In this document: positions 10,631-52,574 of the stretch, piece by piece
Numbering within the stretch: the first letter of the stretch is position 1
Layout of the letters: each line of letters opens with the position of its first letter
Assembly: GCA_002633005.1 (NCBI GenBank)
Contig: NMRA01000084.1
Coordinates: forward strand, 524,030 to 588,029
Direction: 5' to 3'
Length of the DNA: 64,000 bases
DNA from: Phoronis australis
Taxonomy: Eukaryota; Animalia; Phoronida
Notes under the pieces: generated by a model
What the model was told of the DNA's origin: nothing
Database searches by the model: none
The model's input: only the letters and a program-made list of their open reading frames with translations
Position numbers and translations under genes: made by a program

Positions 10631-10763
10631 ATGGGTCCGTGGGTGCACAGATTGGTTACTTTTCTGGTCGGTGCTCTAGGGATGGCGGTCTTGAGTGTTG
10701 TGGCCGCCTTCAATGTTTATTCCAACGCCCTGAAGACGAGATTTAACTACACTCAATCGGAAG
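10631..10763 (+). CDS. MFS transporter exon 1 (MGPWVHRLVTFLVG...YTQSE)
   Basis: accATGg Kozak context, first TM helix, donor aag|gtgagt. Confidence 0.85.
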
Positions 10764-28354: not shown

Positions 28355-28445
28355 TTAAAGTTGTTTACCTATTTTATCTGGAAAATTGCGACTTTTAACT
28401 GTCGAGTTTTTTCACGACTATATTTATAAGCAGGTGCGAATTTAA

Positions 28446-29495: not shown

Positions 29496-29640
29496 CATGG
29501 GCGGCGCACCATAGGGGGGCTGGGGGGCTATAACCCCCACTTTTTTCAGTGCTACGCCACACGTAGTCTATAGGTAGTGCCCCACAAGGGGGCTTAGGGG
29601 TCTTTAGCGCCCCACTTTTTTCAGTGCTGCGCCGCCCATG
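29496..29640. mobile_element. MITE family B with 5-bp TSD
   Basis: Perfect 13-bp TIRs catgggcggcgca / tgcgccgcccatg. TSD aatcg (29491-29495, 29641-29645). Confidence 0.85.
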
Positions 29641-30504: not shown

Positions 30505-30622
30505 TCATTGGATACAACAATCTTTCTTTTCTTCCGGGTCCGTGGCACCATTATCACCAGCAACCTCGTCTTCGTTTTCATCTGATGGTGGTCCATCGTC
30601 ATCAGTGGCGTCGAAATAAACC
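30505..30622 (-). CDS. Repeat protein exon 11 (VYFDATDDD...EEKKDCCIQ*)
   Basis: Acceptor catttcag|, then an acidic tail, CaaX and TGA. Confidence 0.85.
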
Positions 30623-33600
30623 CTGAAATGAACATTTTGAACATTCTAAGAATCAGGCACGCAGGTGGTTTGGCCAGAAATAAGTCAGGGGGGAAGATCA
30701 TTGTGGTCTTGACTCGAAATTGAACCAGTTGCTTTACAACTTTCATCAGTTAATTTTCGAGTCTAGTCTCTAGTAGCAGTAAAGCCCAAATTATTCCGCC
30801 CAAAAAATCGGGCGACAGTTTTCGCCGATACACCATAGTAAGGCGCAGGGCACGATTGAGATCAACAAGATTCTAACCTGACTCCAGAGCTGGAAAATCC
30901 ATTAAGCTAAATACATGTAAGATACAGCTTGGAGTTTTGTGCAAATTAGGGACCCTTTTCAGTCCTAACAATGGAAAAGAATGTGTGTACATAATGCTGC
31001 GATCTAAATGGTCAGTTAAGTCATCACTCAAAATCCTGGCGATAGATCAATAAGCGGCGCAACTTCAGTGTAGCGAAAAGAACTGAAATCACTGGTAACA
31101 GAGACGTCAATACAAGACTTACCATAAGCAGTCATGCAGGTAGGCTGGTCAACTTTGTTGAATTAGCTAATTGGATAATAAAACGCCATAAAGTTCAATG
31201 CTTGCATGATTGGCAATGTCCCCACTGCACCAAGATGACTTACGGGCGTTAAAATCACCATTTATTAAAATGGAAACATCATAATTATGCCAAATATCAG
31301 AAAATTACTGTTTCCTTTCATCAGAGGCCTGAGATGATGACCTATTCATGTAGAAAATGTCATGGCTTGCAAGAATGGTATGTGATTAACTTTAAGTTTA
31401 ACCTAGCAACTACATCATTTATAACTGATTTGATTTATAATGTTTCAAAACTAAGGGTATTGTTTATATAAACAAGAAGATCTTGACCTTCATTTGTGTG
31501 AAACGCAATAGAGTATTGAGGGATCACACAATCAGGTTTGATTTGCTTAGACAACAAGTAGTCAGTCCCACAGAGGGCAAAAATTTTGTAATTATCATTA
31601 TGAAATAAAATCGTGCAGTTATGAGACCATGGTTTGTGAATAAGATATTAAACACCCCACTGGGTGTCAGAGACCAGAATTTGATTTAACAACACAACAC
31701 AGACTATCAAATCTTGGCAATGCGAAACAGAGGTCAAAGTAGAAATTTATTGGGTACAAACATGAACCTCGTAAGTTGCTATGAAAGTAATCATCCAATA
31801 CCAGCTCTTTCGCAACCAGTTCATCTATACATATATCGCAAAACGATTAAAGGCTGTACGTGTAAAAGCATGCATTTACAGGTAACAAAATTCGACAGCT
31901 TACCTGAGATAAATTTGAAACCACTCCTGTTTAGTCAGGAACCTGTCGCAAGTGTTCACATGTGGTTCTTTGACGTGTTTCAAGACCGGTGCCAGGAGTG
32001 TTTGAACAGAGAGAACACGACAAGCTACAAAATAAAACCTTAAAAACAAATCATCAAAGTTTTAAAATAAAAAATGACTACAATATAAAGTAACCATCTT
32101 CAATATCTTACAAAGCCAGCACATATGCAGTCATCATGCCACGACTTCTCCGAACGTGACACTTTCCATTTTACTTTTCTGTAAACTCAAGATACGTGTT
32201 GATCGTATTCTGTGCTCTGGTATATTATGATTTACGCAAACGAGTGCCACTACTTGGAGCTCGATGATCGACCCACAGATTTTAGCAATGAGCTAATTCG
32301 AGCTACAAACTCAAGTTAAAACATGCGGTTTCTAGTGAAACCCCGACATTACGATTTCAGACTCAAACTCACAGCTCGATTATCTAAGAGTTCGCATAAA
32401 ATTTGAACAAAAACGCAAAACATACGAATTCTATCCGGTGTGGAAAGATGGGAGCGTTTTGGGTCCTGCTCATAATGACGCCAGTTCATGTGTTTTGATG
32501 ACAAATGTACAAATTTACTGCCATGGTTATTTTCAGCAAAAGCGTTAGTCCACTGCAATGTTTTGGTCTAGATGATGTAATTTTCTTCGAAAAGCAAACT
32601 TCAACGATCCTAATGTACGTACATTGATGCCTATTGAACCAGGGCAACGCCTCAACCACGGTCTGCTTCAGCGAGTCGGTCACATACTGTTTCATCGCAG
32701 TCCTTCCTTCCAAGACGGGACTCGGGTAAATGGTCCGTTGTCTAAGGTCGATGCATGGCTGTAACAAACGATGTGTGCATGTGACTGTATTGAGGTAATG
32801 TCTTCTGGACCTTTACGCATGTGTGCATTTGTGACCTGCAATTCACCTTCTTTTCGGATATCAATCGACGTCAGATACACATAGCATTCTGGGTAGAGGT
32901 CATTCCGCACAGCGCCACCAGCGGACGATCAGATTAGATCACTTCATTTTAGTTGTTCACGTATCTAAGTAGGTAGGAACTCCATGCATCATAGATACGT
33001 GTAACACAAAGCATCCATCCAAATTCAACTGTCAGCTTACCGAGCAGACAATTGCCTGAGGTACTCTTTCTGTAATCTGGATTCAAGAACTCGTTACCAA
33101 AATCTTAGCTTTCAGTAAACAGGTCTGCGTTCCTGTAGACCCAAGGCACTCGAACTGGAGAAAAGCTGGTAAGATAGCTTGCTTTCCTTGTAATGTATGA
33201 CGTCATCACACGAATTTTGTTTTTTGCGATTAAGTTTCTTGGGTCTACGGAGTGCATCACGAGTCAATCGGATGAACAAGAGCTACATCCGTTGGGTGAA
33301 AGTTTCCCTCGCAAATTAAATGTACCGAACTTGTCTGTCGCGCTCATCCAAAATTTCAATGACACGCTATGATTGGTTAACTCAGCCCAAGAGGCATATT
33401 AAGTTGTCACAATGTCGACTGGTTTTGTCTAGAATAAGACGCATTGCATTGAGAATCTAATACAACTACATAGACCATCTGTTCAAAAATCAATTTTAGC
33501 GATATATGGGCCTGGCATATTGCAGATCCCAACTGCGGATTTATGTGTTAAGTTAAATTGAATTGCAGTTAGTCGTTCAGATCAATCACTAATGAACGTA

Positions 33601-36600
33601 AAACGCACTGTGGTAGCAGATGAAATAACGCCGTATTTTTTAATGCCACACCATTCAAAATCTAATTAAAAAAGGGAAGACATTTGAGTAACCCGACCCA
33701 TAGGTCCTTAAAGTTGACCCATAGATTTGAGGACATCTTGGTCAACTAACATAGCCACGTTTTTCTAAAATGATCCCTGAATTGCTATGTTCTTGATAAA
33801 AGTAGACTCTGAGATTTCTTTAGAACTACATGTACCCTCCGAAGTAGAGTTGAGCAGAGACTATACACGTCATTACAGGATCTCTTTCCACTTTTGATGA
33901 TAAGCTTGACTACACAAAGATCTAAACTTTGCATCCATAATTTACGATCATCTGATTTTTATATGATTGATAACATGTTTACGTTTAAATGTCAAGCAAC
34001 ACAACTCTGCTGCCTGAAATGCTAGGTGGAAGATGAAATATCAGAACACCATGTGGGTCAGTGATTCACTTACCAAAGCATCAGAAAAGAATGCTGTGGA
34101 GATAAGCCAGTTTCAATTAGTGAAAACTGGCATGGATAACAAAAACACTTGCAAAAGTCCTGAAACAGGCTTGCAAACTTGCTGAGAATGGGAAGCGAAG
34201 TTAAAGAACAGTGTATGTTGCAATGGCCATGTAGACGGCCTAAGTAACGTGTCAGCATTTTCGTTTTCGTACTTTCATACTGCCGTATTATTATTTAACT
34301 GAGTAGGATGGATTATATTGAGAAATGTCATGTTAAGTAGAATTTGGTGTTTCCTTTCCACACGGGAATAGCTCTCCCCGGAAGTGTCTTGAGAGTGTTT
34401 TGAGTGCAGAACGTACATGAACCCGAGTTGATAGGTAGTAATAAATACCTAGAACTTCGAAAAACATTGTGACTATAACTATACAGTTGTCTTAGAACTG
34501 CATTTCTTTCAGTTTCTACGGCTAAAAAAAGTCGGTAACCCAATATTCTTTGCCGTGATAGGGTTCCATTTCCGTTGCCAACAAGAATGTCGAAACCATG
34601 AATGCCTCAAGCAAACGCTTCAGACGTTTTGGGGTTGGGCAATCCCAGAATTGAGAATTTGTTAATGACGCGAGTAAAGATGGCGCAAAACGTGAGTTGA
34701 CAACGGGAATGGAACCGTGTCCCGTTAAGGAATCTTGTGAGGTAGACTCTATGAGAATAAAGTAACGCTTAGTTCTGTTTTTTTTTGGCGAGATAAACAG
34801 GGCAAAATGTAGTTTGTAAGCTACGAATAACTTGTTGCACTCCGATTAATCGAATATAGACAGAATATAGAATATAACAAACAGGCTGCAGGTATTCCTC
34901 ACGGCCGTTTTTAAATGCCACAATCACGGATGCTCATGAAAGCAAAATCTGAAAGCTGATCTCTCTGCATCTATACTCTACGTAACCCAGCATAAAAAGT
35001 CGCCCGAGACCTCAATTGGCTTACATGTAGGCTCATCTCCCATACTTTCATAACGCCATAAACAAACTAGTTTTCCATTGAAATCGTGCATTTTGTCCAA
35101 AGTATGAATATGACAATTTAAAATGTTGCAATATGTTCCCTTGGTTATTTGCTCATTGCTTTTGTTTTGTTTTGGTTAGATAAACAACGCAATTTGTGCA
35201 TTCTGGTGGGAGAACTTGAATGGTGGCCGACGGTCACGCTGAACTATTATGCTGGTAACGAATCTGGCAATGAATGCTGAGTGGCTTTTGTGCCGTGTTG
35301 TTTACCGGCATTGCTCTCAGACTGGTTATATTGTATCATAGTTGCACTTGCAAGCCAGATTCGATTCGTGAAAGTCACGCACCAACATTCCAGCATACAT
35401 GTACTGTAGATCCTTACCACCTGACCGTCGGCATCGATTGTGTGGTGGGCCTCTGATGAAGGCTATTTGACAGAAAAAGTGAACAACATGTTAGGCAAGT
35501 CTCGAATCAAAGAAGTAAATGCATTGTAGATTCATCGACTGTGCGTTTTCTTTGCAAACGGATACAGTTGTCCAGTCAACGAGTGAAAAGGCTGCAAAGA
35601 ACTAACCTGTTCCTCTTGATTAGGCGCTCTGACGTAAGCAATTCTTAAAGATGATATGAATACTTTGTCACTTGGTTTACCATCGACGAATGAAGTCGAG
35701 TGCATGTCGATTTCTGGAACCAACGAAACAAAAACGAGACGTACTGTATGTTCTAAAGTATTTTAAATCACGTGGAACAGCTCATTCCGAGACAAAACTG
35801 TCCATATGATAATACAAGGCGTTTGGTATAAATATCATCTCTGATAAGTGTTTTTTGCGAAAACACCATGATAGCAAGCAGAATTTCAGTATGGTGACGT
35901 TTTTAAATAGCTTCCTCTAAATGAACAATTGTTGTCCTTGCCTTATGAGTGTTTCTATTTCCAGCATTTTAATTAAGCAAACCAACTTATTATTCGAACA
36001 ACTTCTTCATTCTCTCGGAAAGCACGTGAGATGTTGATGGATCACAATGAAATGGTGTGTGTTTGGACCTACGATGGTTAAAATAATTTCAGTGCCACGT
36101 GTTTTCACGTAATGGTGCGTACTTACCCATGGCAATTTTCTTAATCTTTCTTTGAATTGTTTGAATATTCGTAACTCGTACGTCCTGTGAATACACAATT
36201 TTTGTTTATTTCTACAACTTGTATTAAATAAAGAGATCTAGACGGAATCAGTGGATTTGTACAATCAAATATCAACCACTTTGTCGCCGACAAAGTCGTT
36301 GTACGGTACACAGAATTGAAAATGAGGCAATGGATTGTTCTTTTTTCAAGACACATCACCCCCACTCAACAATGCCGAGCAATGCTTTCCACGAGGATCT
36401 TAACAAATACCCGTGACATTCCCTCACTCACATGCACTCAAGTTACGATCGAGCAAACAGGGGCACATGTGACTGAGAATGCACTATATGTATTTGAACT
36501 CGTGATGTCCTAACCAATGCGCTATATACATCTACATCATTGTCACATTAAATTCCTTTTTCTGACAATTTGGACCAGTAATAGGCCTACCAACAACCCA

Positions 36601-39600
36601 CCCGTCGATCCTTGAGCCATGCTTGTCCCTTCGCCATTAGACTAGCGTAGTTTCCATATGTCGCCACTGCCACCTTGCCCAAACCTACTCGTTCACTTCC
36701 GGTTTTGTCTGGAACAAGGTCTTCGAAACCTAAAAATATAACTGTGATTTAAAGGAGCATGCCACCCGAAAAACAACCTAGTTTGTACCAATTTAGATCG
36801 AGTGGTTCTACTCCATAACGACACGTACGGTTGCGTTACCTGACGGCAGACGGAGGTGTTGAAATTATCCAATGACGTCATCGGTTTCACACGCAGTCTG
36901 TTCAGCAGTTCACAACACGGGTTACTGGTGTCAGCTTGTCGCTTGAAGTCATCGTTTAATTAACACCAATAAATCATCAAACTTCGAGGTAAAACCCTTA
37001 AACATACACCGAATTCTTATAAAAACGTGTTGTCTTACGGATTTATTGGTATTTGGACACACCGTAGCCTACAACGGTTCTGCAGGCCAATAAGGTCCGT
37101 AGCAGGAGTTTGGGGTCTGTTCGGAGATAATTTTGAAGTATTTTCCGTAAGATACAGACAGAAGAACCTATTTGAGATCTGTGTTGTTTAGACTTGTGAT
37201 TTTTTGAGTTCTAAACACACTGAAAACGCTTGTTAGCCTGGCCAGTGGCTCGGAGCCCGATCAGGCCCGTCGAGGCCGGCCGGATTGACTCGTTATCCCC
37301 GCCAGTGGCTCGGAAACTGATCAGACATCAGGAACATAAACCAGCCAAAGTTCAGTGGAAACTAAACTTTCAGTCAAGAAAATACTATACTAGTGACCCA
37401 AAGTAATGTGCACCTGATTATGTCGGTGAATTAGCCACGAAACTGCAAATCTACTTACTCGTCGGGGGCCGCGAATTCAGGTTCCGCTTTGGCCACAGCA
37501 CCGTCAGGGCAGAAGTTGTACATTGCCAATCATTATTTGAGTAACGTAAATGTAAATAAAGATTCCCCTAACACCTGGTCGTGTGATGGAAATCAAGTTG
37601 TTTCACAACAGCTTCTGCCAGCAAACACTAAATTAGCATGAGCTCACACGGCCTAGGTGTCCTGTCATTAGTTTTATAGTACCTAAAGCCGGCCGGGTAA
37701 TGCAGTGATTTATTCATTGCTGGCTTCTCAAATTATTTGCACACACAAACACTCCAAAGGCATTACAAATTGCAACTAATAAGACAAACTTTGTTTCAGT
37801 TTTATATAAGTATTGTTTAGGGTGAGAATAATTCATTTTGAAACAGAACGCTCAGTAATAAACGCTAACGATGGCAACTCGCAATCCGCCCGACTTAGGA
37901 CGAACTAGAGCTCATCAGTCCCGACTTCGCAGGTGGATCGTTAACTTTTACAGGCTATCAATTCGAACAGGAATACAGTGATGAAGAAATACTAGAGAGG
38001 CGCTGTGAACAAGCTCAGACAACGTATGGAGTTATTTGGTAAGCCGGCATTCGTCAGGCACTGTCGAGACGTCTGCAGGCCAAAGATACGGAGATGTTTC
38101 ACGGCCTCATACTTGCTATTTACAGCGTACATTTCATTCTTCACTACCATGAGCCACTTCCTAAGCATTTCGGACTCTCGAGGAAGTAAAAAACGATATA
38201 CCCGCTTTCCTCGCAGCTGCTTAGTTCGGACAAGCGGGAACGATGCACCGCAGCATAGCGGCATTCACTCTGCTTATAAACCACTGACGTCGCTAGCTTC
38301 GTTTCTCACCTTCCTCACAGGTTAACGCGACACCTCTTGGAAAGGTATGGTCGACCGTATGCGAGGCGATGTGGATATAGACTGATTAAGACGGCGAAAA
38401 AGACTAATTAAATCGGGTGGCATTCTCCTTTAACCATTGTAGGCAACACCATTGGCAATAGCCTGCGTGTCCTTTTGTAGTTGTTTGGGGAAGGGTAAAA
38501 TTTAATCGGCCATATTGGCTGTTATGATTGACGCCTAAGTTTAAAAAATGAGACTCGTGATTCTGATTGGACGTACGAACTACGGTAAAAGGTGTTTGGT
38601 GAGAGAGCGGCCATCGTGGTTTCGAACGCTGCTCCATCCGTGTTTATGACGAGACACTGGAAACGTCCATGCACGCGCGTTGCATTACCTATTGTTTCGT
38701 TCCTGGGCTCGCCGTGTTCATAGAACACACGCACAGTTGTCAGGTACAGGATGTCATTTCCAAGTTGAAACCAGGCGTTCTGGTCTGGGTCAATGCCCTG
38801 ATCAGTCCAGTAACCACGGTATTTGATGTCGCGCGTCTCTATGGTGATTATTTTTCCTGTTAAATGAGAAACTCGTATAATGAATATCATTTTTAGCGAG
38901 GCATTAACATTATATTTGTTGTCATTTGACATTTAGATTCATCCTAGATGCTAACAAGTACACGAAGGTGTGGTATTGATGTTAAATGTACCCAGGTGCT
39001 AACTATACGCAAAAGAACGACAACTTCCAACAGACTTTATATCAATTTTTATGAAAACCGGAACAGTTAATGAATGATCACCTTCTATAGGATTGCTCTG
39101 TAGCTCAGTGTTAATATCTTGGAGCATGATGACATGAGTTGCAAAGTTGGGGTATTTCTGTTTGCTTGACAACGGATCTGCTTTTGGCAAGAAGTTGACA
39201 TAGCCAAGACGTTGCGGAGGAGCGTCTGGATCTTCTTTGACTCGCACCCAGAGCCTTAAATAAAACGTGACTTCCCATTAGTCGAAAGCTCATTTGTTCG
39301 AAGAATCCCTGTTTCTCCGGCGGCCATCCGGTCCGAGAACCAATCCATCCGAAAATCAACCATTCGTCAAATCACCCGTCTTACCCGGACAGCCCATTTG
39401 CATTGGGCCGAAGGCACATTTGGGTGAACATTTTAGCAATACAAACTTCTGATATTCAAATATGAAATTTTCGGACAAACGGACCTTAGGATTATCCTTC
39501 GGGCAAATGGGTTTTTGGACTATTGTGTTATCGCACTTTTGAACCGTCGAATAAGTGAGTTTTATCGAACAAATGGCCCCTCGGAATGGGCCGAGCATTT

Positions 39601-42600
39601 AGGACAAATGGGATGTCTCACCAATGGCACATTTTCTAACTAATGAACATTCAGACAAATGTAAACAACCAGTACATTACAATTTGCTTGTAGCACAACA
39701 AAGTACTTCTTAAACTGCATTACAATTCGTTTATACAGAGCAGCGTAATTGATCGACAGGTCCACCATGCTTGTAGTCTAGAACGTTGCTGTGCAATGGT
39801 AGTACAATATAATCCAGCACTGTTCTGCACTTAATAGTGTAAAGTGGTGCCATGTAATTAATACTAATTACGGTGAACATCACTTCACGGGCATGATAGA
39901 GCAACGCACCGACAACGTATTGGCGGAAGAAGTACATGTGGGCAGGATGAGGGATGTCCAGCCCTCGCACGTGGTCACGTGATATACGTGACGGCAAGCA
40001 GTACTGGCAAACAGCCAGCCATGGCATGTCGTGCAAAATGATTGCATACTCAATCGACAGAATAAATATTTTCGCGGCCAGAATAAATTGCTACTACATG
40101 TATTTTCATGACATATCGAAAACTGAGATTAAAGTACAGTCATGTAAAATAGGGTGATGGTTAAGAACATGTACAACTTGAGTGTGGACAAGAATTAAGC
40201 CAACCAGGGGCCGGTATCTAAAACTTTACTCAAAATCAAACTCGAGATTATGTTTAAGGTGTTCCATTCTACTTTGGTATGGACTTAAGATAAGTGCCTA
40301 TTTTTCTGTGCTCGGGTGTATTGTAGTTTACGTGGATGAACGTGCTTATCAGACGGGTAACCAAGCGTGACTTTGGACTCCACAGTGGCTTGTGTAGTCC
40401 ATTTAATACTCAGTCACTTAATAATAGAAAAATAGTTTAGTTATAGTAAGAAGAGCGGCAAATATATTTTCGAGTTCGATATCGGGTAAAATCATTGCAC
40501 CACGGGCTTAGGTTTCCCAAACCAATCAGAGTCAAGAAGAGAACAAAAATTATTCGTTTGATTAAACATTGTGGAAAGTTCATCCAAATACTGAGGTGTA
40601 ATTCTGAAAAAATACGGATGCGTTTAAATTTTCATGGGTTCGGGTTTTGACCCACTTTTTAGCAGAACAAGGGTATTTGGAATAAAGATCTGAGTTGTGC
40701 TGTAGATTGTGATTATTCAATTATACAGATCAGCATTTGTGTTGGCTTGCGAACTTATTCAAATAATCAATATATGACTCGGCAACAGGCGCTGTATCTT
40801 TTGAATTTTTCATTTGAGTGTGAAATTAGAAATTTGCTACTGCGGCAATACGCTCGGTACTGTCTTATATTTTTCATTTGATTCTCAAAAGCAACAGATT
40901 TGCAGTGCTTACCCAAAACATGTCCGTCAAATTGAACATCAACATGAGACCACGATATCAAAATGCTTTAAAAATACATTCAATCAATCAGAATTGCTAT
41001 GACCATTATTGCCATCATCGCCCTGGTCTTGATCACAGCCATCATTATTTCTCAGTACCGGCATGACTCCAGAGGCAAAGTGCTTTCAAACAAAGTTATT
41101 ATCCAGGCTGTGCACCTGTTCGTTCCTTATCCACACCAAAAACGTTCATCATTTGCATGACAAACACTACCCTTAAGTAGTCAGTACATCATTTTCATTT
41201 CGGTTGAGGGAAATATGAGAAGCCGGCAGGAGAAATTGCAATCGAAATAAAGCCTTAATTTCCCGTCAGAGAAACGTGCTCTCGTAAAGTGAAATTAGCC
41301 TGCAAAATGATGCACAGAAATAACAGCAATCTGTGCTTTCTATTTCCAGGACAGCATCATTTTTGTGTTAGCTTAACACATTCAATTGAATCTGAAAGTG
41401 TGAATTTAGAGTTTCGAGTACAATGCCGGCTTATTGGTGAGCTTAAGCTCACTAAATATTTTCCATATAGATCGATATACTGTCTGATCGTAACAACTAT
41501 CAATGAAAAGCGACACGTCGTAAGAGCGTCGCACGTCGAATATGTGGCCAGCTGGTCATTCGTCGCACGAACGACGTAAAATCTCGTCGTAGCAAAAAGC
41601 TATTGGTTGCGGTACACTCGATGCTAGTTTGATGAAAATCAGCTTCTGTGAAATGCATGGGTCTGTTTTGATTGGATCTGATGCTGGAAATTGTGAAATT
41701 TTCTTATCTCAGTTATACAGAGGGTAAATGACTCAGCTATGCATGATTCACGAGTTGTTCAGCTATAACACCCACGATTTCTAATGCGTTATTGAATTGC
41801 ACTCCATCAATGATTAAAATCTCAAGTGTGTCTTTCGGTACAGTACATGTAAATGCCTCTGGGTTGAAACCTTTCGAAAAGAACCAGACACTTCTACTGC
41901 CAATAGATTGCAGAAAACGAATCTTATCAGTCCTGTGCGAATTTTTCAGATTTCTGACCATTGCCAACAAATTTGTTTAGTTACCGAAGTTTTTATTGTA
42001 CATTTTAGAGGAAGTGTGCACGCTATTACTGTACGTGTTAGATAGGAATTATTTCTCATTAATTTCCGTACCTTTCTCTGCTGATGAAAAAATCCTCTAA
42101 TTTCATTATGGCACAGATGTGTTAACGAAGACGGTGAGTTTGTATGAAGACGGCGAATTTACAATTAACAATAAACAGAATAAAATGGCGGTGAATTCTT
42201 TTGACGTCCATTTCTGGTTTCTGGAAAGTTTAAATTTCAACAAATGAATTTTTTGCAAAAATGGTATCCCGTTGTCTAAAATGTCACTTTAGTTTTTATG
42301 TCAATCAATCCCGTGCATTTCCTTTCTTTACGTACTTGTTTTTATGAAAATTTACTTGACACATATTTAAAATCCAGTAAATTGTCAACAAATGAGCAAG
42401 GCGAACATCAATTTAGAACACGGGGACGCTTTGCCACCAATTTGGGCATTTTTAATCAGAGACCTCCTGCAGTACTCTCGTCTCAGTACATTTCCGGGAT
42501 CAGACTCCGCGCCTGAGCCTTCTGCATGGTTATATGTTGTCGTGAAAGTACACGAAAAGAATCCCACGGTGACACTCTATCCGGTCGCATTTGGGCTACT

Positions 42601-45600
42601 CGACAGGCTTGCTCTTCAAAGAAACCATAGCGCTTCAGCTGACATTAAGTTTGGAAAGAAGCTTGGATAATCAGGCGTGAAATTGCCCAGTCTAAACATG
42701 GTAGCGCCAATAGTGTTTTTTAAAGTCTCACTGGAAAGTCTTTAAATGGCAAAGTAGAATAGTCCCTAAAAAGCACATGTGGCTTGGTTCCTCAATTTTC
42801 AAAGTCGGACAACAAATGTGACTTTTACATAAAAAATTACAAAGTAGTCCACGGCCAGTATTCTACATTACTAACTCTGCTGGGTGCGCAACATAATGGG
42901 TCAATTCTGAAGGGTAATCAACCAGCAGTTATTAATTGAAGAAAGTCATGTGTCATCGAACAATTCTGGGCATGAGGGCGTGAGCAGTCGCTTGCACTTT
43001 ATACACGGTAATGGCCAACAACTAGACTCTGTTTTGGAGAACGAAAATTTATCGCCCACTGCTACTGTAAATACAAAATTCTCAAGGCATTCCAAGACGA
43101 GTCATCGTCTTCCCAAATTAATCAACAGTACATTTATTAATTTTCTGAAGTCTTAATTTCTTCCAATGGAATAAAAATTAATGAACAACGCAGCTATTGT
43201 CATTTGAGATTACAATTTTGGGACACTCTGTACTTACCACATTTTGGAGGTGGGTAAGAAGTTATATGTGAAATTCAGGTAAAAATACGCCGTAATGACG
43301 ACGATGTACATTGATGGACATAGTTATTTACTCCATTGAGCGTCTGGTTAAGGCCGAGATATAATTTGTGAAATATTGTCAACAGCTTCAAGACGTGTTC
43401 CTACAGACTGGAGAGTCTCTTGCGTCTATGGAACTTGTTTAACGTTGAACTTAACATCACAATGTCCGCCATGGGAAATAGAGCTCGAGTTGATAGCTGT
43501 TGCGAAATTATTTAATCGTCCAGGGAACAGTTATTACCATTTAAATGGGATTCACAGAAACCTGATCTGAACGAGAACGTCGATGTCTTGATGACTTCAA
43601 GCTCTATGCAGAAAATTTTATTAACGAACATTTTTGTGATAACATCTGAAGAAAACGTGATCAAACCAGAGCTCATGTGACCCCGTATCCTCTAAAGCCG
43701 TAATTCTGGTCCCCAGCTAAGACGGCCGTACATGTACTGTAGGCTTTTGCGAAGGCGTTGCTGGTAAGAGCCAAACCATTGCTAGTTTGCTAACTGACAA
43801 AAGTTGAAACACCACCGTCGAAAACCATCTAGATGAGTATTTGCGTATAAGATTTCAGAATACGACCATGTTAGCTATATAGCCTTACTCATACTGCTGT
43901 GCACCAAGCTTAAAACCACAAATCCAGGCGCACAACCTTAATTTGCTCTGGTACCTGTACAGAACGTGAACAATTAAGTGTTGTCGGAAAGAAATTAACT
44001 TGCACTCTACTCTAGGTCAGTGAGGACATACATGTGTATATGTCTTTGGCGAACATTAAAAAAACAGTATGGGTGGCCTGATGTCATTAGCTGTGCATCA
44101 GACGTGTTCAGGCCTCGTGGTAAGGCCCATTGCACAAAACACCTAAGGTAAAGCACGGGAACCCCATTATGGTTCCTCGTGAAAGAAGTTTTCAAGTCTG
44201 CCAGTCTCTTTTAAGAAAACGGACACTAGACGTTTCCATTTGTTGCCATGCACTATATGTTGTAGGCATGTAACAGTGTCATCCAATAGGTTGCTCCTTA
44301 GCCTATACGAAGCTCGACAAGACTCTACCAGGTGTTAAGGGGATTCTACGTCAGTACCACACTTGGGACACACTGGGCTCCCCATATGCCCAGTAATGTG
44401 TCTGTGTCCGGCTAGGTTACAGTGCCCCGTCAAAATGAAAATCTTCTCCCGTATTGCAGGCGACTTTATCCTAGGAAGATGGGGCTCCTTCACACAGCAG
44501 CAAGATAACCTAGGCTTTTCTGGAAGAGGCCACATCACAGGATGAGTGGCCCTCGCCTAGTCCTGACTGCAATCCAATGGATTGGGACTTTCTGAAGGAG
44601 AAAGTTTACTGTGGAATGAGAGGCGGACTGACTGAGCAGGATTCAAAAGACATAGAGAATCCTACACGAATCTCAGGTTTACGACATGGGCAAATCCTCA
44701 TGGAAATTTCTTTACTGAAAAACTCGAGGTGTCTAAAACTTTCAACCACACGACGCAACTTTTGTAAAAACACGCTTGCGCAATGTAAAGTAATTCATTT
44801 ACTTTTTGTTAATAGGCTTATTTTGAGCTTAACAATTGTAAAATGCATTGAACTTTCGTAGCAAATATTCAAGTTAGAATCTAATAAATAGTCTTTGAAG
44901 TTGTAATATTAAAACTTAAAAAATATCTATAAATATGTCAGTAAGGCTTCCCCGCGCGTGAGCACTGAATTGACCTTCAAACAGCACAGCTTTACAGTCT
45001 CGCCGCGTTTCTTGAGTTGAGGCTCGTCTCCGTTTGAATGAACGTGGATATGGAATTCGCCGCCGAAGATGGGTCTGTTTAAGAAATTGTTCGCATGTCC
45101 TTCTGACTGGGAGTACGTACAGTTGCGACACCCGATCTATCAATCATAACCTTGTCACCTCGGAATTCCGGCATTGTTTGGTAGGCGCGCGTTTGGTTGT
45201 TTTAGTGATTTGCAGACGATAAAATGTAAGGCGTATGGATTTCTACTTAATTTGCACTACTTTGTGATTAGCCAGGTGTTATTAACCAGTCGTGTCGTAA
45301 CACATTCCCGCTCATGTGAAAGATGGACATTATGTCAAGAGGGAAAATCTCAATGGAAAAAATACGGAAAAGCATTTCTGGTTGGCAAAAAACGGTTCCG
45401 TTCATTCGTGGAAGACGAGGAAGATGGAGGCCCCATTGACCATAGACTGAAATAAGCGAGCTTTCCTCTGATATTTTATTTTTGACCTGATGTTTGTATT
45501 TTGACAGTACTCGCACAATCGGACACAGATATCTTTGATATTTTGTTAATTTATTGATGATATTCTAAGGTTCATCTAAGAAATTTGAAAAAATCGGTTT

Positions 45601-48600
45601 AACCTGCTGCGAAATTACTTGTCAAAAATGGCTCCCTTTCTGGGACACCTGATATATACGCATGTTTATGTACGTTACGTACGTACTGTGTATGTAGATA
45701 CGTATACATGGATGTATACTTGCATGTACACGTATGTATGTACGTATATAGGTGTATGTACGTGCGTACGTACGTATTATATATGTAGGTAAGTGTGCGT
45801 GCGTGTGTGTGTGCGAACTGTATGTGTGTGTATACATGTAGGTTTGTACGCACGCGTATGTATCTGCTTATCCACGTGTATATGCATGCATGCATACGCC
45901 AGTCGTTGATACTTCACTGGGAATGCAGCGGTGCGTTTTAAAGACACTACTGCGACTGATGTAACCCTCACTGTACTCACAATTCATTTTACACTCTCAT
46001 AAACGACATTCAAAGAACTCTGAGCCAGAAAAATTGAGATAACTGGGGTCTTAATTTGGACTGGGTGTTAGACTGTTCCCTGATGAGTTAAGCTACTCGC
46101 AATTCAATTTGCAAAGCGGCATCTTTAGAAAATGTAAGTAAAATGTCCAAGGGACCGAGGTACTGCAGGGTCCAGTCTGTGTGCCAGCTTGATTGGAACA
46201 CATTAATAGCATCGAAATTGCACCTAACATACCATCTCCAGACTCCCTGTATGCATGTATATTAAAATATGCAGGTACCTATTACATAATTGGGCCTTAG
46301 ATATATCCAGGTATTAGATAAGCAGACACAAACAGGATCACTGCATTCCTGCTAACGTCTGTTTCGAAGGAATTCGACGTTGCTGGCGATCCANACTGTA
46401 CTCACAATTCATTTTACACTCTTATAAACGACATTCAAAGAACTCTGAGCCAGAAAAATTGAGATAACTGGGGTCTTAATTTGGACTAGGTTTTAGAACG
46501 TACCCTGATGAGTTAAGCTACTCGCAATTCAATTTGCAAAGCGGCATCTTTAGAAAATGTAAGTAAAATGTCCAAGGGACCGAGGTACTGCAGGGTCCAG
46601 TCTGTGTGCCAGCTTGATTGGAACACATTAATAGCATCGAAATTGCACCTAACATACCATCTCCAGACTCCCTGTATGCATGTATATTAAAATATGCAGG
46701 TACCTATTACATAATTGGGCCTTAGATATATCCAGGTATTAGATAAGCAGACACAAACAGGATCACTGCATTCCTGCTAACGTCTGTTTCGAAGGAATTC
46801 GACGTTGCTGGCGATCCAGATAGTGAATTTGTCAGTCCTACTAATATACAGCCGGTCATGTCAAAATCCAAGAGCATATATTGCAATCTCACAAAAGTAT
46901 CACTGATCTCTCTTTAGGGAGTTGCCAACTTCAAAATTGAGAATTAAAAAGTTGTTGACATTTTAGTTTGGTATTATTCACTTCAAATTTGACGTGTGAT
47001 AATAAACTGACTAATTAGGTCATTCAAGGTCGTAAAGTAAGCACCACACTCATTGGTTAATATTGGACCAATACACTTTACAGTAGCCAATGAAAAGCAA
47101 GGTTACATAGAGATAACACCATAAAAGCTGCTTATACATCATGCAGCAGATTTGCATCAAGTACTAACTAAAACCAAACAACAGTATGTCAAATTCAGTG
47201 GCAATTTTTTAAAAATGAAAAAGTTGTGGAAAACTAATGCAAATAATACTGGGAACTGCTTCTTCAGAAATATAAACGCTGCTTAAAGAACATACAACAT
47301 AATGAAACGGCTTAAGCAAATACCTTTGTTTTGGTTCACGATAATAGTATCAAAAATACCAATATGGTACCTGTAGCATAACTGCACAAGCCCATGGGTT
47401 ACCATGACAACAAGATATGCATATTCATCACAAGCATTCATGGCAAGGCCCATGGCATTATTATAGCGTGTTTACAATAGAAGCACATGATTGGTTCTTT
47501 TAAATTAGCTTATGGCGTAAAACTTGCATTCTTTACACGATATTGTGTTTTCTGTTGCAAAATGAAGTGCATGGTTTGTTCATATGCAAACAGCATTTTC
47601 TGCAACAAACGTTCCCGGCATATTCTTGCTTTTGTTTTATTGCAGTTTAGCTAGTAGTAATAACTGACTACTGAAATAACTATAAAACAAATTTCCCGAC
47701 ATTGCCGAGCCGCCTGGCCCCTTCTATTGGTGATTGAGAATTGACTGGTTCCCGTGAAAATTTCTCCGACCTCTGCCTGTGCTCGTCGACCACAACTGTA
47801 AGGCCCTGCACCATGAGTCAGATAGTTTAAAGAGTTTCCACTGTGAACCTGAGCCCCAAAAAGAATTCTATTAATACACAGTGCTGTAGTCGTAAAATTA
47901 GAGGCAAGTAAGCGCCCAAAGCCCATAGTATCACTTTGAGCTCTGAACGTAACTTACGGTGCGTAGGCGCTAAATTTAAATGCCAAAAGGTGGTTGGCTG
48001 CGCCTACGTGCGCCTACGTACCACTGCAGCACTTTTAATACATATTAAGAGATTTAATAGCGTTTAGTATACCTGTTGCCATGAAACAAGTCAAAAATTA
48101 AATAATCTATTTTCTGTTATCGGGGCTGTACGTAAAGGGTGGAAGAACGTCTCCGCCGTTGTTGTGTTCACCAGTGCGGTACTAACGAGTTGTGAGGAAA
48201 GTCTGCGGAGAGCTGCCTTTTTCAGACACGAAAAGGTGCGTTTGTGGAGGCTGTAGTAACACCAACTTGATTGAGAACGTCCCTGTGTACAATTTCCTAA
48301 AAACGTGACAGTTGCACAGAAATATCATCGCTTTGTGCGCCGCACGGGAATTTGGAATGCCAACGTAGAACATTTGGTTCAATCGGGAGCCACATTTTGT
48401 TAGGCACATTTCAAGGAGTCGTGTTTCGACAAAACACAAAAGCGGCTTTATGATGAAGGATTCGTCACCTTGTAAGCGTGTTTGCAAAGTTCATAAATAA
48501 CGAGCAAACTGCTTCCATTCTAGGGCGAGTGATGCCAGGCCCTCAACTCCAGCCCAGATCGAATGCTACGACACGTAGCCCTATGCATTGGTTTTTAGAC

Positions 48601-51600
48601 CGTGCTCATCATGGCAGTCATGAATACGAGGGATTCAGGTTTACTGGCAATGGTTATTAAGTGTGTATTTTGTAAATAATAGCCATCCCTTGGTTCAGTT
48701 GACTGGGCAACGCCAGAAATTTGTAACATTCTTGATCCGCTAGGTGACGCTTTGCGCCATGTCCCTAACCAATCATAACAACGCATAGTAAGGTTAAAGG
48801 TCAGGAAGCTTGGGCGCTAGTACCGCGAGCCCGACTGAAGTCTGCAGAGCAATACTTGTCAAGTTTACAATAACAATCTTTGGAATTTCTGGAATTACAC
48901 AGTCTACAGTATGACAGTGCTAGCTGGGTNGAGGGATTCAGGTTTACTGGCAATGGTTATTAAGTGTGTATTTTGTAAATAATAGCCATCCCTTGGTTCA
49001 GTTGACTGGGGCTCACATAGGTCTGCAGCATTTCTCGTGCAGGTGGATCGAGTTCATGTGCCTTCAAAGCCGATGAAAGTTCGCTAACTGAGAAATCGAA
49101 TTCATTGTCTGATTCTTCAAGTTCTTGAGTGCGATGCCCGTATCAACTCTCCTCTGTCTCCATAATAATTATCCAGTTCTCAGTCTAAGTCGTCCTAGTC
49201 TCTGATCTGCTGTGTTCCGCCATTGCAATTGATTGTTAAGTGACCAAACGTCTTCCACCCATTACATCATTTGGCAGGAAACTTGGAAATAACAATTTTT
49301 TTTCAAAAATGAAACATATTCTCGACTGTTTGGTATAAAAATGCTTATTTAGTTAGATTTTATGATATTAATTTCATATTCGCTAACTGAAACCCCAAAA
49401 AATAAGAAAATGCATGTTGGAAACTCTTTAAACCTGACACATCCTTGTCTATTCCAAGAACCCCTGTCTGAGAATACTTGAAGGGTTTGTCAAATTTAAA
49501 CAGCCTGAGGTATAAGTCATCATTACTCTGCACTGCTGCAGGATGGTAAGTTTTTATTTGAATGTATATTGTTTTCTCACCCAGTTCTAGCTTTTGACGA
49601 AGTGAAAGCACAAGCCTATTATTCCAGTCTCGTCGGACATACGTTCAACTGGATATACCAATGACGTGAGCTGAGGTGCCATCAGCAAATTCGTAGTATG
49701 GTAGTATGAGGCACACCAGAGTCATGAGACTAAATAACGAACTACTGAATCGTGTGAATCGACTGTGACAGAGGCTGTTATATCCTAGAGCTTAGTATGA
49801 GTCGATAATATTGAATAAATACCGTTCTATATTAAACATTGTAGTTGAATTATAGCAAGGGTTTGGACATTTTGAATAGAATGCTTATGTACCGGTTAAA
49901 ATAATCACTAATTTTAAAAAATAATCACACCATACATAAATGGTATCCCTGGATAAAGACATACAAGTCACGATGTTGTTCTCTGTGTGAGGCCCAGCTT
50001 CTCATTGGCTAAAATAAACCGTATCAGCCACTCTTTAACAAATGAGAATATAGCTTTCTCAACGACCTAAGCTACTTCATGATGATAAGTGTGTGTGTTG
50101 TTCTATCATGACTTTGGTATCAACATTTCACATTTAAATGATTAATCAAGCTTTGGCCAGCTGACTATCAACATTTTTCAAGTAAGTTGGGGCATTTTTC
50201 TCACGAAGATATAAGTGAAATTAGGGATCGTGTGAATTGCATGAAAACCCCGGTAAAATCAAATATCCTTCACGACTGCACCTGGAATTCAACGTATCGT
50301 AACGGTACCATTTGGTTATGAAAACATATGCACGTGCTTAAGACCATTTTACGCAGATGTTTGGCAGCTGGACATCATTTAAATTAATTCTGATCATGCT
50401 GCAATTGAATGAAGAAACTCACCTAAGCCCAGTGACAAAACATTGCACGCGCTTGCTGTCTTCATTGTAGGTCATAGTCTCGGCCTCGACTTCCTCATCG
50501 TCTGCATCTTGCTTTCGTTCAACAGTTTCACAGTTGATAACTTCCCAGTCCAGATTAACCTTCAGAAACACGTTCGCACGCTCTAGACATTCGCTGTAAA
50601 GTTGAAGATACGAAAGCACGCTTTGACCTTGTTTTTCTACACAAAATGCAAAGACAAAATATATTCTTGCGGTGGTTATGGAGAATTTTTTCGCCTAACA
50701 ATCAGTAGCCTGTGTCCATCTAAAATGTTTGATATTTGTAGGTCACACTTGTGCTCTCTCATTGTGCATCAATAAAATTAGGAAACTAATTGTTTTCTCG
50801 ACTTTCGTTTTACCACAATTTTTGAAAAATACGCTGAATTGCAAATCCCCGAAATTGAAACCCTTTTATTGTAAATTCTAACTCAAGTCAGGGGCGGATC
50901 CAGGATTTTGAGTTGGGGGGCAGGGCATAGGAATAACCAGAATATTGCCTAATGCGCGCAACCAGCCTAAAATGTAGGGATGTAGAGGGTCTCGAACTTT
51001 TGGGTTTGTGGACTAAAAAAAAAAACGGGGTTTGTTCAAGGCCTATGCAAGGAGCATTCGCCCCTCCACGAGCCCCCTGGGTGCTCGAATATGTTAGTCA
51101 GCAATTCGCACCCCGAACTGTCGAATGGAATCTGGGAGAATTTTAATGGGAGGGGGCATGCCCCCCTTGGCACCCCTCTAAATCCGTCACTGCAAGTACT
51201 TTGGAATTAAAACCATAGCTGAAACAAACTCAGCGAATAATTTTAACAAGCTAACCCTGAAATGTGTTGAAAGAGACGCGGAGCCAATATTAATCCAATA
51301 AAAAATCTTGACTAATCGTTTCTGATAATGTGGGAAAAAACATCCAAGGAAGTTTCCAAAACAACATATCCACAGGTGTCAAACTGTCCAGTTAACTTTT
51401 GTGTCCCAATAACGTCTTGGAAGAGCGTGACTTAGCTCACCTTTGGTATCACTGACCCGAAAAAAACAGCAAAGTGAGAGCACTCACACCGACGACAAAG
51501 ATTATTGCGTAATCAATCCAGTTTTGTCGTACCTGGGATTGTGACAACGTTCTCCCTAGCAAATGGCGGCGAGATATCTTGGCTCGTGTAATAGAAAAAA

Positions 51601-52574
51601 ATGGTACCGTCAGTGTTTCGAATCCATGAAGATTTTCTCGGATAAAAGACTACTTATTACCGCAGAGACAAAGCATTCTATATACTTGTATTTACAATAG
51701 TCACAATGTAATCGACATCAAACACATATTTATTGATCTCAAACTAGCTACGCCATAGGCCTAACTGTGCATGCGGGTGATCCGTCAGTTGAAATTAGCA
51801 GCTTGTCTGCAGTGAATATCGTGGCTACTTTGCATATATGTCTTGTTAGACCAATAGGTTTTGGAACTGCGCACACTGCTGCAGAACCTCAAATTGCGGA
51901 GTGTTGTGCATATTTTTAAGCACATATTGCCGCAATAAAATCGAAACTCACTGGGATACAGTCCAGGGCGTTGGTTGGTTCTACGGCACTTACAATAAAA
52001 ATGGAGGAGACGTTAAACGTGCGAAGCCTCTAAGTTACTGTAAAAATCAAACGCAACTTACGCATTGCTCACAATGCTGCATGTTCAATCGTTCCGAGCT
52101 CAGAATCAATATTGTCTGTCATAGGTTTGAAGAAGGGCGTAGCTACACGCAAACGCGCGTGCACGCTAAAAGCCATGTAATCGATAGGAAATGAATAGAA
52201 CACTGCGTGGAATAGTTTTTTATTATTTTTTGGAGCATGGTTTAACTCAAGCAAATCTCACATCATTTCAGATCCAGCAGCCACCGACAATGCACATGCA
52301 ATGTAAGTGCACGGTTCAATGTATATCAGTCATCGTATTTTAGAAATGGTGCCTATATCACTTATATATACATGTACTTCGCGACGGTCTTAACTGAACC
52401 TATGTGACGTAAAAAGCTTTACCTGAAATCCTCGAAGACGGGAGCTTTCATCAGTCCACCTTTTTCTAAACATTTCGGCCAGAAGTCAATGTAGCTGAAT
52501 TTAGGCCCGGGCAGCTTGCTCTCCGAGTCGCAACGATCTCTTCCATCAGCATTGTTTGACTCGTCGTCTGACAT
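30505..52574 (-). CDS. Uncharacterised four-repeat protein with C-terminal CaaX, 458 aa; complement(join(30505..30622,31904..32024,32623..32758,35418..35462,35607..35713,36127..36184,36602..36729,38689..38856,39082..39254,50423..50593,52423..52574))
   Basis: Eleven exons, all GT-AG. Intron phases (2,2,1,1,0,1,0,0,1,2) are mutually consistent, giving 1377 nt with no internal stop. The translation shows four self-similar repeats and ends KKDCCIQ*. Confidence 0.85.
31904..32024 (-). CDS. Repeat protein exon 10 (SCRVLSVQTL...WFQIYLR)
   Basis: Acceptor ttttgtag|, donor cag|gtaagc. Confidence 0.82.
32623..32758 (-). CDS. Repeat protein exon 9 (PCIDLRQRTIYP...EALPWFNRHQ)
   Basis: Acceptor ttgttacag|, donor aat|gtacgt. 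Confidence 0.78.
34530..34748. mobile_element. Old palindromic MITE-like element
   Basis: ~55-bp imperfect inverted arms with core ggttccatttccgttgccaac / gttgacaacgggaatggaacc. Confidence 0.55.
35418..35462 (-). CDS. Repeat protein exon 8, 45-nt symmetric linker (PSSEAHHTIDADGQV)
   Basis: Acceptor ttctgtcaaatag|, donor gtg|gtaagg, phase 0/0. Not required to keep the frame. Confidence 0.5.
35607..35713 (-). CDS. Repeat protein exon 7 (EIDMHSTSF...SSLRIAYVRAPNQEEQ)
   Basis: Acceptor ttccag|, donor cag|gttagt. Confidence 0.82.
36127..36184 (-). CDS. Repeat protein exon 6 (DVRVTNIQTIQRKIKKIAM)
   Basis: Acceptor ttcacag|, donor tgg|gtaagt. Confidence 0.82.
36602..36729 (-). CDS. Repeat protein exon 5 (GFEDLVP...AKGQAWLKDRR)
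   Basis: Acceptor tttttag|, donor cgg|gtgggt. Confidence 0.8.
36753..38429 (-). mobile_element. Non-autonomous Kolobok-type transposon, copy 2, with THAP remnant (in intron 4 of the repeat-protein gene)
   Basis: TTAA flanks. TIRs aggagcatgccacccg / cgggtggcattctcct. The - strand MPLCC...LPRESEMLRKWL...HLRI is the THAP start. Confidence 0.85.
38689..38856 (-). CDS. Repeat protein exon 4 (KIITIETR...VRVFYEHGEPRNETI)
   Basis: Acceptor ttaacag|, donor tag|gtaatg. Confidence 0.87.
39082..39254 (-). CDS. Repeat protein exon 3 (LWVRVKEDP...LGYVNFLP...NPIEG)
   Basis: Acceptor tttatttaag|, donor aag|gtgatc. Confidence 0.85.
40208..40508. mobile_element. Decayed Harbinger-type MITE related to 4710-5090
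   Basis: Starts cag|gggccggtatct. Shares ctcgagatta...tctacttt...cttaagataagtg and the tttcgagttc right arm. Confidence 0.55.
44070..44545 (-). mobile_element. 3' fragment of an I-group (LOA/Nimb-like) non-LTR retrotransposon
   Basis: The - strand reads LTGHCNLAGHRHITGHMGSPVCPKCGTDVESP*HLVESC, the C-terminal CCHC region of RNase-H-containing LINE ORF2, with a premature stop. Confidence 0.75.
45650..45900. repeat. Alternating purine-pyrimidine low-complexity repeat (TA/TG/CG)
   Basis: tacgtacg, tgtatgta and gtgtgtgtgc runs over ~250 bp. Confidence 0.9.
45970..46818. repeat. 424-bp direct duplication across n46394 (probable assembly artefact)
   Basis: 45970-46393 is nearly identical to 46395-46818. 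Confidence 0.85.
47879..48034. mobile_element. hAT-type MITE family A, copy 4
   Basis: TIR cagtgctgtagt with a perfect 8-bp TSD ttaataca. Confidence 0.88.
48225..48420 (+). pseudogene. Decayed THAP-domain fragment of a DNA transposon
   Basis: KRCVCGGCSNTNL...(frameshift)...QFPKNVTVAQKYHRFVRRT matches the THAP C-x4-C-x-N...FP pattern. Confidence 0.6.
50423..50593 (-). CDS. Repeat protein exon 2 (SECLERANVFLK...FVTGLR)
   Basis: Acceptor tttacag|, donor ag|gtgagt. Confidence 0.87.
50889..51192. mobile_element. MITE with 5-bp TSD
   Basis: TIRs caggggcggat / atccgtcactg. TSD caagt at 50884-50888 and 51193-51197. Confidence 0.8.
52423..52574 (-). CDS. Repeat protein exon 1 (MSDDESNN...FSYIDFWPKCLEKGGLMKAPVFEDF)
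   Basis: aaaATG start, donor cag|gtaaag, phase 2 matches exon 2. Confidence 0.8.

What the first reader, a model, noticed from the sequence alone, without database searches (positions are those of the whole stretch)
30505..52574. Hidden 11-exon gene encoding an uncharacterised protein of four tandem ~110-aa domains
Seen: short exons scattered over 22 kb splice in phase into 458 aa. The repeats align. R1 is FSYIDFWP..PVFEDFSECLERANVFLK..WEVINCETV..FVTGLRLWV. R2 is LGYVNFLP..PNFATHVIMLQDINTELQ..GKIITIETR..YLTTVRVFY. R3 is IGFEDLVP..ATYGNYASLMAKGQAWLK..VRVTNIQTI..FISSLRIAY. R4 is LRQRTIYP..VTDSLKQTVVEALPWFN..CRVLSVQTL..FQIYLRVYF. Each unit has an invariant Pro, an [E/Q]T and a terminal [L/V]R-hydrophobic strand. 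Inference: a beta-alpha-beta-beta module, four of which could fold into a pseudo-symmetric, possibly oligomeric assembly. I cannot assign a named domain. From memory (unverified), similar sequences exist as unannotated invertebrate proteins and as small single-domain bacterial proteins.
Basis: partly seen in the sequence, partly recalled or inferred. Interest (0 to 1): 0.85.

Follow-up and report, generated by a model that had tools for sequence, protein, structure and literature searches.

The report
Unnamed four-domain protein with lipid-anchor motif
This is a real, expressed 10-exon animal gene (not 11) whose protein is four copies of a small unnamed domain that scattered bacteria carry as a one-domain protein, ending in a motif predicted to take a lipid anchor, so it likely works as a membrane-tethered ring or scaffold of a family that has no name in the libraries searched.

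Summary
The gene is real. RNA reads confirm 8 of its 10 junctions but join exon 7 straight to exon 9 (20 reads plus a contig), so the expressed form has 10 exons and 443 aa. Of the 12 listed coding differences in RNA, 9 are silent. The four repeats have 85-90 aa cores. They belong to an unnamed family: a motif scan found it in 54 of 84 bacterial loci as single-domain proteins. A profile of these hits all four repeats, and its unsearched N-half still hits repeat 1 at 28 bits. One animal multi-repeat relative was found (Helobdella). No Pfam, NCBIfam or PDB family covers it. A bacterial member folds confidently (pLDDT 89.6) as strand-helix-strand-strand (SHS2-like), with only weak matches to dodecin, YbjQ, Cse60 and FPM13. 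Best reading: a prenyl-anchored pseudo-oligomeric scaffold (about 40%). Assembly, lipidation and ligand are untested.

The parts
52575..52687 (-). 5' untranslated leader, at least 113 nt, with an in-frame stop just upstream of the ATG
   Evidence: X1 contig covers 52552-52687; the frame opens at 52586 after a stop
52423..52574 (-). Exon 1: start codon, acidic N-tail, strand 1 and loop of repeat 1
   Evidence: junction to exon 2 in 12 reads
50423..50593 (-). Exon 2: helix, strand 2, loop and most of strand 3 of repeat 1; ends inside the invariant Arg codon (phase 2)
   Evidence: 12 and 9 junction reads; best ORF of 2909 for the bacterial profile, E 0.0006
39082..39254 (-). Exon 3: end of repeat 1, linker, strand 1 and helix of repeat 2
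   Evidence: 9 and 13 junction reads plus contigs
38689..38856 (-). Exon 4: strands 2-3 of repeat 2 and linker
   Evidence: 13 and 17 junction reads
36602..36729 (-). Exon 5: strand 1, loop and helix of repeat 3
   Evidence: 17 and 7 junction reads
36127..36184 (-). Exon 6: strand 2 of repeat 3
   Evidence: 7 reads upstream, 2 reads plus contig downstream
35607..35713 (-). Exon 7: strand 3 of repeat 3 and linker; spliced directly to the 32623-32758 exon
   Evidence: 20 reads plus X1 contig
35418..35462 (-).
   Evidence: ends; no joints, near-zero sense depth
32623..32758 (-).
   Evidence: 20 and 31 junction reads
31904..32024 (-).
   Evidence: 31 and 26 junction reads
30505..30622 (-). Last coding exon: end of repeat 4, acidic tail, stop
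   Evidence: 26 junction reads; X1 contig spans 30454-30621
30505..30519 (-). C-terminal CCIQ plus stop: CaaX/CCaX-type motif (predicted farnesylation, possible palmitoylation)
   Evidence: sequence; none of the 3 differences in the covering RNA contig falls here; motif rule from PMC12493179 and PMC9868626 (passages)
29104..30504 (-). Likely 3' UTR, at least 1.4 kb; candidate poly(A) signals near 29818 and 29264; contains a repeat near 29500-29640
   Evidence: sense-strand depth and X1 contigs; signals

Best explanation
The gene is a spliced, expressed 10-exon animal gene whose 443-aa protein holds four diverged copies of an unnamed domain of about 88 aa, predicted to fold as strand-helix-strand-strand (SHS2-like), and the protein is likely farnesylated at its CCIQ end and held on the inner face of a membrane, where the four copies would pack edge to edge into a ring-like scaffold. 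Shown: gene structure, expression, an excess of silent differences, homology of the repeats to a bacterial single-domain family, no signal peptide or transmembrane stretch, and the terminal motif. Predicted: the fold, from a bacterial member and carried over by homology. Inferred: the bacterial protein is a homo-oligomer; intragenic duplication fixed four subunits in one chain and let them diverge; the acidic tail spaces the body from the lipid anchor; the conserved Asp/Glu/Thr/Arg/Trp set, best kept in repeat 1, forms a binding site or subunit contact rather than a catalytic centre.
For: Splicing. Selection: 9 of 12 listed coding differences are silent against 21% expected (p about 1e-4), and the 3 replacements fall in the tail or a linker. 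Homology: a profile of 48 bacterial proteins scores R1 35.9, R3 13.3, R4 12.0 and R2 3.7 bits; of 2000 shuffles 0 reach 12 bits and 8 reach 3.7. The N-half, absent from the search motif, scores R1 28.2 bits against a shuffle maximum of 8.3. Duplication: introns 2 and 9 split the same invariant Arg codon in phase 2; Pro9, Thr49 and Arg83 of the family are kept in all four repeats. Fold: pLDDT 89.6, pTM 0.78, strands 2-7, 43-53 and 78-87 around helix 26-40. Weak structural neighbours share this topology: dodecins (Foldseek E 0.7-1.0), Cse60-named phage proteins (E 0.05-0.54), FPM13 (Z 4.0, rmsd 3.9, 59 aligned) and YbjQ 1vr4 (Z 3.6, rmsd 4.4, 69 aligned). Papers (passages read) give these folds as oligomers: YbjQ-type pentamers (PMC4092069), FPM13 double nonamer ring (PMC13028475), and rings of the SHS2-like protein FlgP (PMC12222027). 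Anchor: X = Gln favours farnesyltransferase (PMC12493179); CCaX ends can be prenylated, then palmitoylated (PMC9868626). A comparable end occurs in 13 of 3807 stop-ended frames of the window (0.3%). Highest 19-residue hydropathy is 0.87.
Against: All structural matches are weak and tied with unrelated ribosomal, ACT-domain and capsid proteins (best Z 4.3; no Foldseek PDB hit under E 0.001), so ring formation is an analogy only. The same fold class also has monomers (DUF1471 domains YahO and SssB, RcsF; PMC4092069). The only animal relative found (Helobdella, 561 aa) has no CaaX at its annotated end, though that model looks broken, and 0 of 48 bacterial members end in Cys. So the anchor is unconfirmed by conservation. 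Three of six repeat pairs are not significant on their own, and linkers of 9-13 aa allow free domains. No conserved bacterial gene neighbour points to a partner. The variant list comes from truncated tables.
Confidence: 0.4

Rival explanations
1. Beads on a string: four independently folded SHS2-like domains act as separate protein-binding modules of a membrane-anchored adaptor, with no ring.
For: The repeats have diverged strongly (3 of 6 pairs not significant) and differ in their long loops. Monomeric members of the fold class exist (PMC4092069, passages). Weak hits include SHS2-type domains inside larger proteins, such as GyrI/SbmC and BmrR (Z 3.6). A protein-interaction role for SHS2 modules is recalled; the source paper was not held.
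Against: The bacterial form is a stand-alone one-domain protein with 8 invariant positions among 55 sequences, which suits a self-assembling unit. Most stand-alone relatives by topology are oligomers.
Confidence: 0.27
2. A dodecin- or YbjQ-like soluble store or buffer for a small ligand (flavin, other cofactor or metal), built as a cage from several four-repeat chains; the CCIQ end is incidental.
For: Dodecins recur among Foldseek hits (TM by target 0.45-0.49). The family keeps two invariant Trp and one invariant Arg. Some bacterial copies sit among oxidoreductase and RidA genes.
Against: 0 of 51 members match the dodecin or YbjQ Pfam models at E up to 1. Cys is rare in the family (mean 0.2 per protein) and no Cys or His is among the positions conserved in 70% or more. 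The second Trp is lost in repeats 2-4. A CaaX-like end by chance is about 0.3%.
Confidence: 0.17
3. A small enzyme: the invariant Asp6, Glu48, Thr49 and Arg83 form a catalytic site, perhaps between subunits, kept active in repeat 1 and degenerate in repeats 2-4.
For: These polar residues are invariant in 55 of 55 bacterial sequences and all are kept in repeat 1.
Against: Glu48, Thr49, Arg83, Val84 and Trp85 were fixed or favoured by the search motif, so their invariance is partly selected. No pathway neighbour is conserved, and no enzyme fold matched.
Confidence: 0.12

Closest known systems
SHS2 (strand-helix-strand-strand) module: dodecin, FlgP, Lpp20, FlgT
   Same: Predicted order of three main strands and one helix; dodecins among weak Foldseek hits; FlgP described as SHS2-like and ring-forming (PMC12222027, passages).
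   Different: No sequence match. This family has a long loop after strand 1 and another between strands 2 and 3. It occurs as four tandem copies in a cytosolic-type animal protein with a CaaX-type end.
Sporulation protein Cse60 (Pfam PF10957, Spore_Cse60)
   Same: Best named look-alike: Atlas score 0.80, several Cse60-named phage models in Foldseek, and helix-to-strand-2 alignment by hhalign (E 0.0014, 21 columns).
   Different: hhalign probability only 17%; 0 of 51 members hit PF10957. Cse60 is about 60 aa, lacks both long loops and has an acidic strand-1 motif instead.
YbjQ/UPF0145 and DUF74 pentamers; tandem YbjQ-like domains of C2CD5 (the C2CD5 link is recalled, not from a call)
   Same: Similar topology (1vr4, Z 3.6); pentamers per PMC4092069. 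C2CD5 is a recalled precedent for a eukaryotic membrane-targeted protein with tandem copies of such a domain.
   Different: No member hits a YbjQ model. YbjQ_2 and YbjQ_3 models do not hit the family locus in 3 of 3 genomes tested. No C2 domain here.
FPM13 (Francisella periplasmic metalloprotein, PDB 9ome)
   Same: Beta-alpha-beta-beta monomer; Z 4.0, 59 of 70 residues aligned, rmsd 3.9; builds rings with an inner sheet and outer helices (PMC13028475, passages).
   Different: 10% identity. FPM13 is periplasmic, metal-binding and reported unique to Francisella. The Z score is within the range of unrelated rows.
Helobdella robusta HELRODRAFT_183377 (P0004, uncharacterised)
   Same: Same family: three profile-matched stretches and four repeat-like segments in 561 aa; its first repeat matches R1 at z 8.2.
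   Different: Low-complexity inserts, apparently missing repeat parts, and no CaaX at the annotated end; orthology is not shown.

Membership tests
SHS2-like / dodecin-like fold class | Strand-helix-strand-strand order with one helix across a three-stranded sheet | tested here: met
   Predicted model of bacterial member L045, pLDDT 89.6; carried to the window's repeats by homology only
SHS2-like / dodecin-like fold class | Significant structural match to a solved member | tested here: inconclusive
   Foldseek dodecin E 0.7-1.0; VIA best Z 4.3, tied with unrelated folds
Dodecin | Sequence match to the dodecin Pfam model | tested here: not met
   0 of 51 members of A4 at E up to 1; no PDB sequence hit
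Dodecin | Dodecameric cage that binds flavin | not testable with these tools
YbjQ/UPF0145 and YbjQ-like domains | Sequence match to YbjQ Pfam models | tested here: not met
   0 of 51; YbjQ_2 and YbjQ_3 matches in G001, G002 and G004 lie on other contigs than the family locus
YbjQ/UPF0145 and YbjQ-like domains | Pentameric ring | not tested
   No complex prediction was obtained
Spore_Cse60 (PF10957) | Score over the curated cut-off | tested here: not met
   0 of 51; 0 of 9 exon peptides
Spore_Cse60 (PF10957) | Distant homology by profile or structure | tested here: inconclusive
   hhalign probability 17%, E 0.0014; Atlas 0.80; Foldseek viral E 0.05-0.54
DUF7116 (PF23429) | Score over the curated cut-off of 27 bits | tested here: not met
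   Exon 2 scores 16 bits, E 0.012; 0 of 48 bacterial members match
CaaX/CCaX prenylated proteins | Cys fourth from the end, aliphatic a2, X in Met/Ser/Gln/Ala | tested here: met
   CCIQ-stop, covered by an RNA contig; rule in PMC12493179 (passage)
CaaX/CCaX prenylated proteins | Actual prenylation and membrane location | not testable with these tools
   Needs labelling or fractionation; the one animal relative found lacks the motif at its annotated end

The most novel reading that the evidence does not exclude
An undescribed SHS2-type self-assembling domain family spans at least ten bacterial phyla, possibly giant viruses, and animals. In animals four copies were fused into one chain and given a farnesyl/palmitoyl anchor, making a new membrane-tethered ring or cage scaffold whose ligand can be found through its easily expressed 88-aa bacterial form.
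Probability: 0.25. Interest if true: 0.75.

Novelty: new variant of a known kind. Interest (0 to 1): 0.5.

Why it matters
It defines a domain family missing from Pfam, NCBIfam, PHROGs and the PDB as searched here, shared by scattered bacteria and by animals, and it gives a testable handle: an 88-aa bacterial member with a confident model, and an animal four-copy version with a predicted lipid anchor. If ring formation and prenylation hold, it is a clear case of a bacterial homo-oligomer turned into a single-chain membrane scaffold. The importance is moderate, because the fold class is known, no function or phenotype is linked yet, and only one other animal member was found.

Tried and rejected
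Single-exon searches gave no true relative: 0 hits from 1 candidate; 3 hits, all long repeat proteins of other kinds, rejected. The exon-fragment alignment was poorly aligned and found 0 of 2525 candidates. No hits for exon 2 in genome contigs or plasmids. PDB sequence searches gave only repeat artefacts or E above 0.04. Folding exon 2 alone gave a useless model (pLDDT 55.6). DUF7116 was rejected. Viral contigs: 0 of 62 motif loci hold a member; none by single protein; none in GenBank phages. Metagenome scan: 1 locus from 112 candidates. Gene neighbourhood: 112 flanking ORFs from 61 loci show no family shared beyond close kin. A tree of 61 rows on 89 columns was largely unresolved, with long animal branches, so no donor or direction of transfer is claimed. 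Complex prediction of four copies gave no verdict because the queue was full. A 66-nt in-phase exon-like stretch in intron 2 (about 43889-43954, seen by eye) has zero depth and is skipped by the exon 2-3 reads. No RNA holder was listed by the index itself; three runs came in by species label. Earlier scan findings: none in 4 look-ups. Literature: no paper holds DUF7116, dodecin-like + fold + YbjQ or five member accessions; the library lacks most subscription journals, so a description in print is not excluded.
Full report

2. The repeats. Cores span residues 26-111, 124-211, 221-310 and 324-408. In local alignment against 1000 shuffles, R1-R3, R1-R2 and R3-R4 stand out (z 11.4, 6.2, 3.6) and the other three pairs do not. 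Introns 2 and 9 both split the codon of the terminal-strand Arg in phase 2. That fits duplication inside the gene, though parallel gain at an AG|G site is possible. No other copy of the gene was seen in the window: the best profile hits among 2909 frames were mostly its own exons.

3. The family. Searches with single exons found no true relative. A degenerate motif for strands 2 and 3 was scanned over GTDB genomes and gave 84 loci. Of these, 54 hold a family member at E below 1e-5: 27 Planctomycetota, 7 Bacteroidota, 6 Verrucomicrobiota and 14 from seven other phyla or unassigned; the other 30 have no such hit and are taken as chance matches. The 48 full-length ones are single-domain proteins of 81-106 aa. 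Their profile scores the four repeats at 35.9, 3.7, 13.3 and 12.0 bits; of 2000 shuffles of the protein none reaches 12 and 8 reach 3.7. The N-terminal half was not in the motif, so it is an independent check: it scores repeat 1 at 28.2 bits against a shuffle maximum of 8.3. The gene is patchy: 4 of 150 other Planctomycetota genomes, 0 of 150 Bacteroidota and 2 of 100 cyanobacteria (incomplete genomes included). It is also on 17 plasmid records. Members looked up that carry a name are all called hypothetical or uncharacterised (9 of 10 found). No family in Pfam (51 members), NCBIfam, PHROGs or PDB sequences covers it. The ESM Atlas returns unnamed clusters at 0.92-0.95 and Cse60 at 0.80. A search for longer proteins scored 7995 candidates and returned one: a 561-aa Helobdella protein with three profile-matched stretches and four repeat-like segments. 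That search is insensitive, so the range in animals is open. No neighbour gene is conserved beyond close kin. A tree did not resolve origins.

4. Fold. With 55 bacterial sequences, AlphaFold2 gave a confident model of L045, the member that aligns best to repeat 1 (pLDDT 89.6, pTM 0.78). It has strand 2-7, a loop with a short strand, helix 26-40, strand 43-53, a long loop, and strand 78-87. This is the strand-helix-strand-strand (SHS2) order described for FlgP and dodecin (PMC12222027, passages). Structure searches are weak: no PDB match under E 0.001, dodecins at E 0.7-1.0 behind ribosomal and other unrelated rows; best VIA Z 4.3, FPM13 4.0, YbjQ 3.6, all tied with unrelated folds. Among viral models the best is an uncharacterised Harvfovirus protein (E 0.0025, TM 0.63, 23% identity), followed by several Cse60-named proteins. 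Profile comparison with 13 Cse60 sequences gave 17% probability. So the domain is shaped like the SHS2/dodecin/YbjQ/Cse60 class but is not a member of any of those named families. The window's own protein was not folded whole; exon 2 alone gave a poor model.

5. After an acidic tail the protein ends in CCIQ. Gln at X favours farnesyltransferase (PMC12493179, passage), and CCaX ends such as that of brain Cdc42 are prenylated and then palmitoylated (PMC9868626, passages). Such an end occurs in 0.3% of stop-ended frames of the window. There is no signal peptide-like or transmembrane stretch. Against this, the Helobdella model and all 48 bacterial members lack it.

6. Mechanism. Best reading, about 40%: a farnesyl-anchored cytosolic protein whose four domains pack through edge strands into a pseudo-symmetric ring or ring segment, a fused form of a presumed bacterial homo-oligomer, serving as a scaffold or ligand-binding platform. 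Oligomers are common for this topology: YbjQ-type pentamers (PMC4092069, passages), the FPM13 double ring (PMC13028475, passages) and FlgP rings (PMC12222027). Monomers also exist (PMC4092069). Rivals are independent adaptor domains (27%), a dodecin-like ligand cage (17%) and an enzyme with one live repeat (12%). The oligomer prediction that would separate these could not be obtained, because the queue was full.

7. Novelty and verdict. No paper in the held library names the members or the fold-family combinations searched; most subscription journals are not held, and no supplements were read. The gene is real and corrected to 10 exons, the family is unnamed, the fold class is known, and the function is inferred only. 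Novelty: new variant of a known kind. Interest 0.5.

Noticed in passing
L098:5066-6288 and 6877-7278 (Trichormus plasmid), L099:3160-4382 and 7001-7717, L096:570-1785: In cyanobacteria the single-domain gene sits directly downstream of a CPBP (type II CAAX protease-like) gene and near a RidA gene, sometimes in two copies. Curious beside the animal protein's CaaX end, but it is one clade of plasmid-type modules and was not seen in other phyla.
   Followed up: partly
UniProt A0A3G5A3U9 (fold search): An uncharacterised Harvfovirus protein of 142 aa is the best structural match overall (E 0.0025, TM 0.63, 23% identity) and may be a giant-virus member of the family; its sequence was not fetched.
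   Followed up: no
L100:3980-4210 (Caballeronia plasmid; cluster of 102 sequences): A 76-aa member with a much shorter strand 2-3 loop; it may bridge towards Cse60-sized proteins.
   Followed up: partly
P0004 (Helobdella): Two of its repeats break off at or just after the terminal-strand Arg, where this gene has introns 2 and 9; the public model may miss small exons there (inference).
   Followed up: no
window 10600-24605, + strand: Neighbouring gene for a major facilitator superfamily transporter (last long exon MFS_1 E 5.8e-10), convergent with the four-repeat gene; the upstream pieces are by eye only.
   Followed up: partly
window 11772-14179 and 17284-19712: A segment of about 2.4 kb repeated 5.5 kb apart at 96-99% identity, with a 336-aa open frame on the minus strand in one copy and related inverted pieces near 62300-62600; mobile element or assembly duplication.
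   Followed up: no
window 27956-28358 and 36750-38433 (intron 4): Copies of a THAP-domain element (THAP E 6.9e-10); the intron copy draws 100-300-fold read depth from diverged copies elsewhere in the genome.
   Followed up: partly
window 45970-46694, 55137-58426, 60073-61161: Tandem duplications of 425 nt (intron 2, with an N at the joint), 434/773-nt units and 545 nt; the first may be an assembly artefact.
   Followed up: no
window 622-2098, + strand: Broken frames that look by eye like a LINE retrotransposon remnant; Pfam did not confirm.
   Followed up: partly
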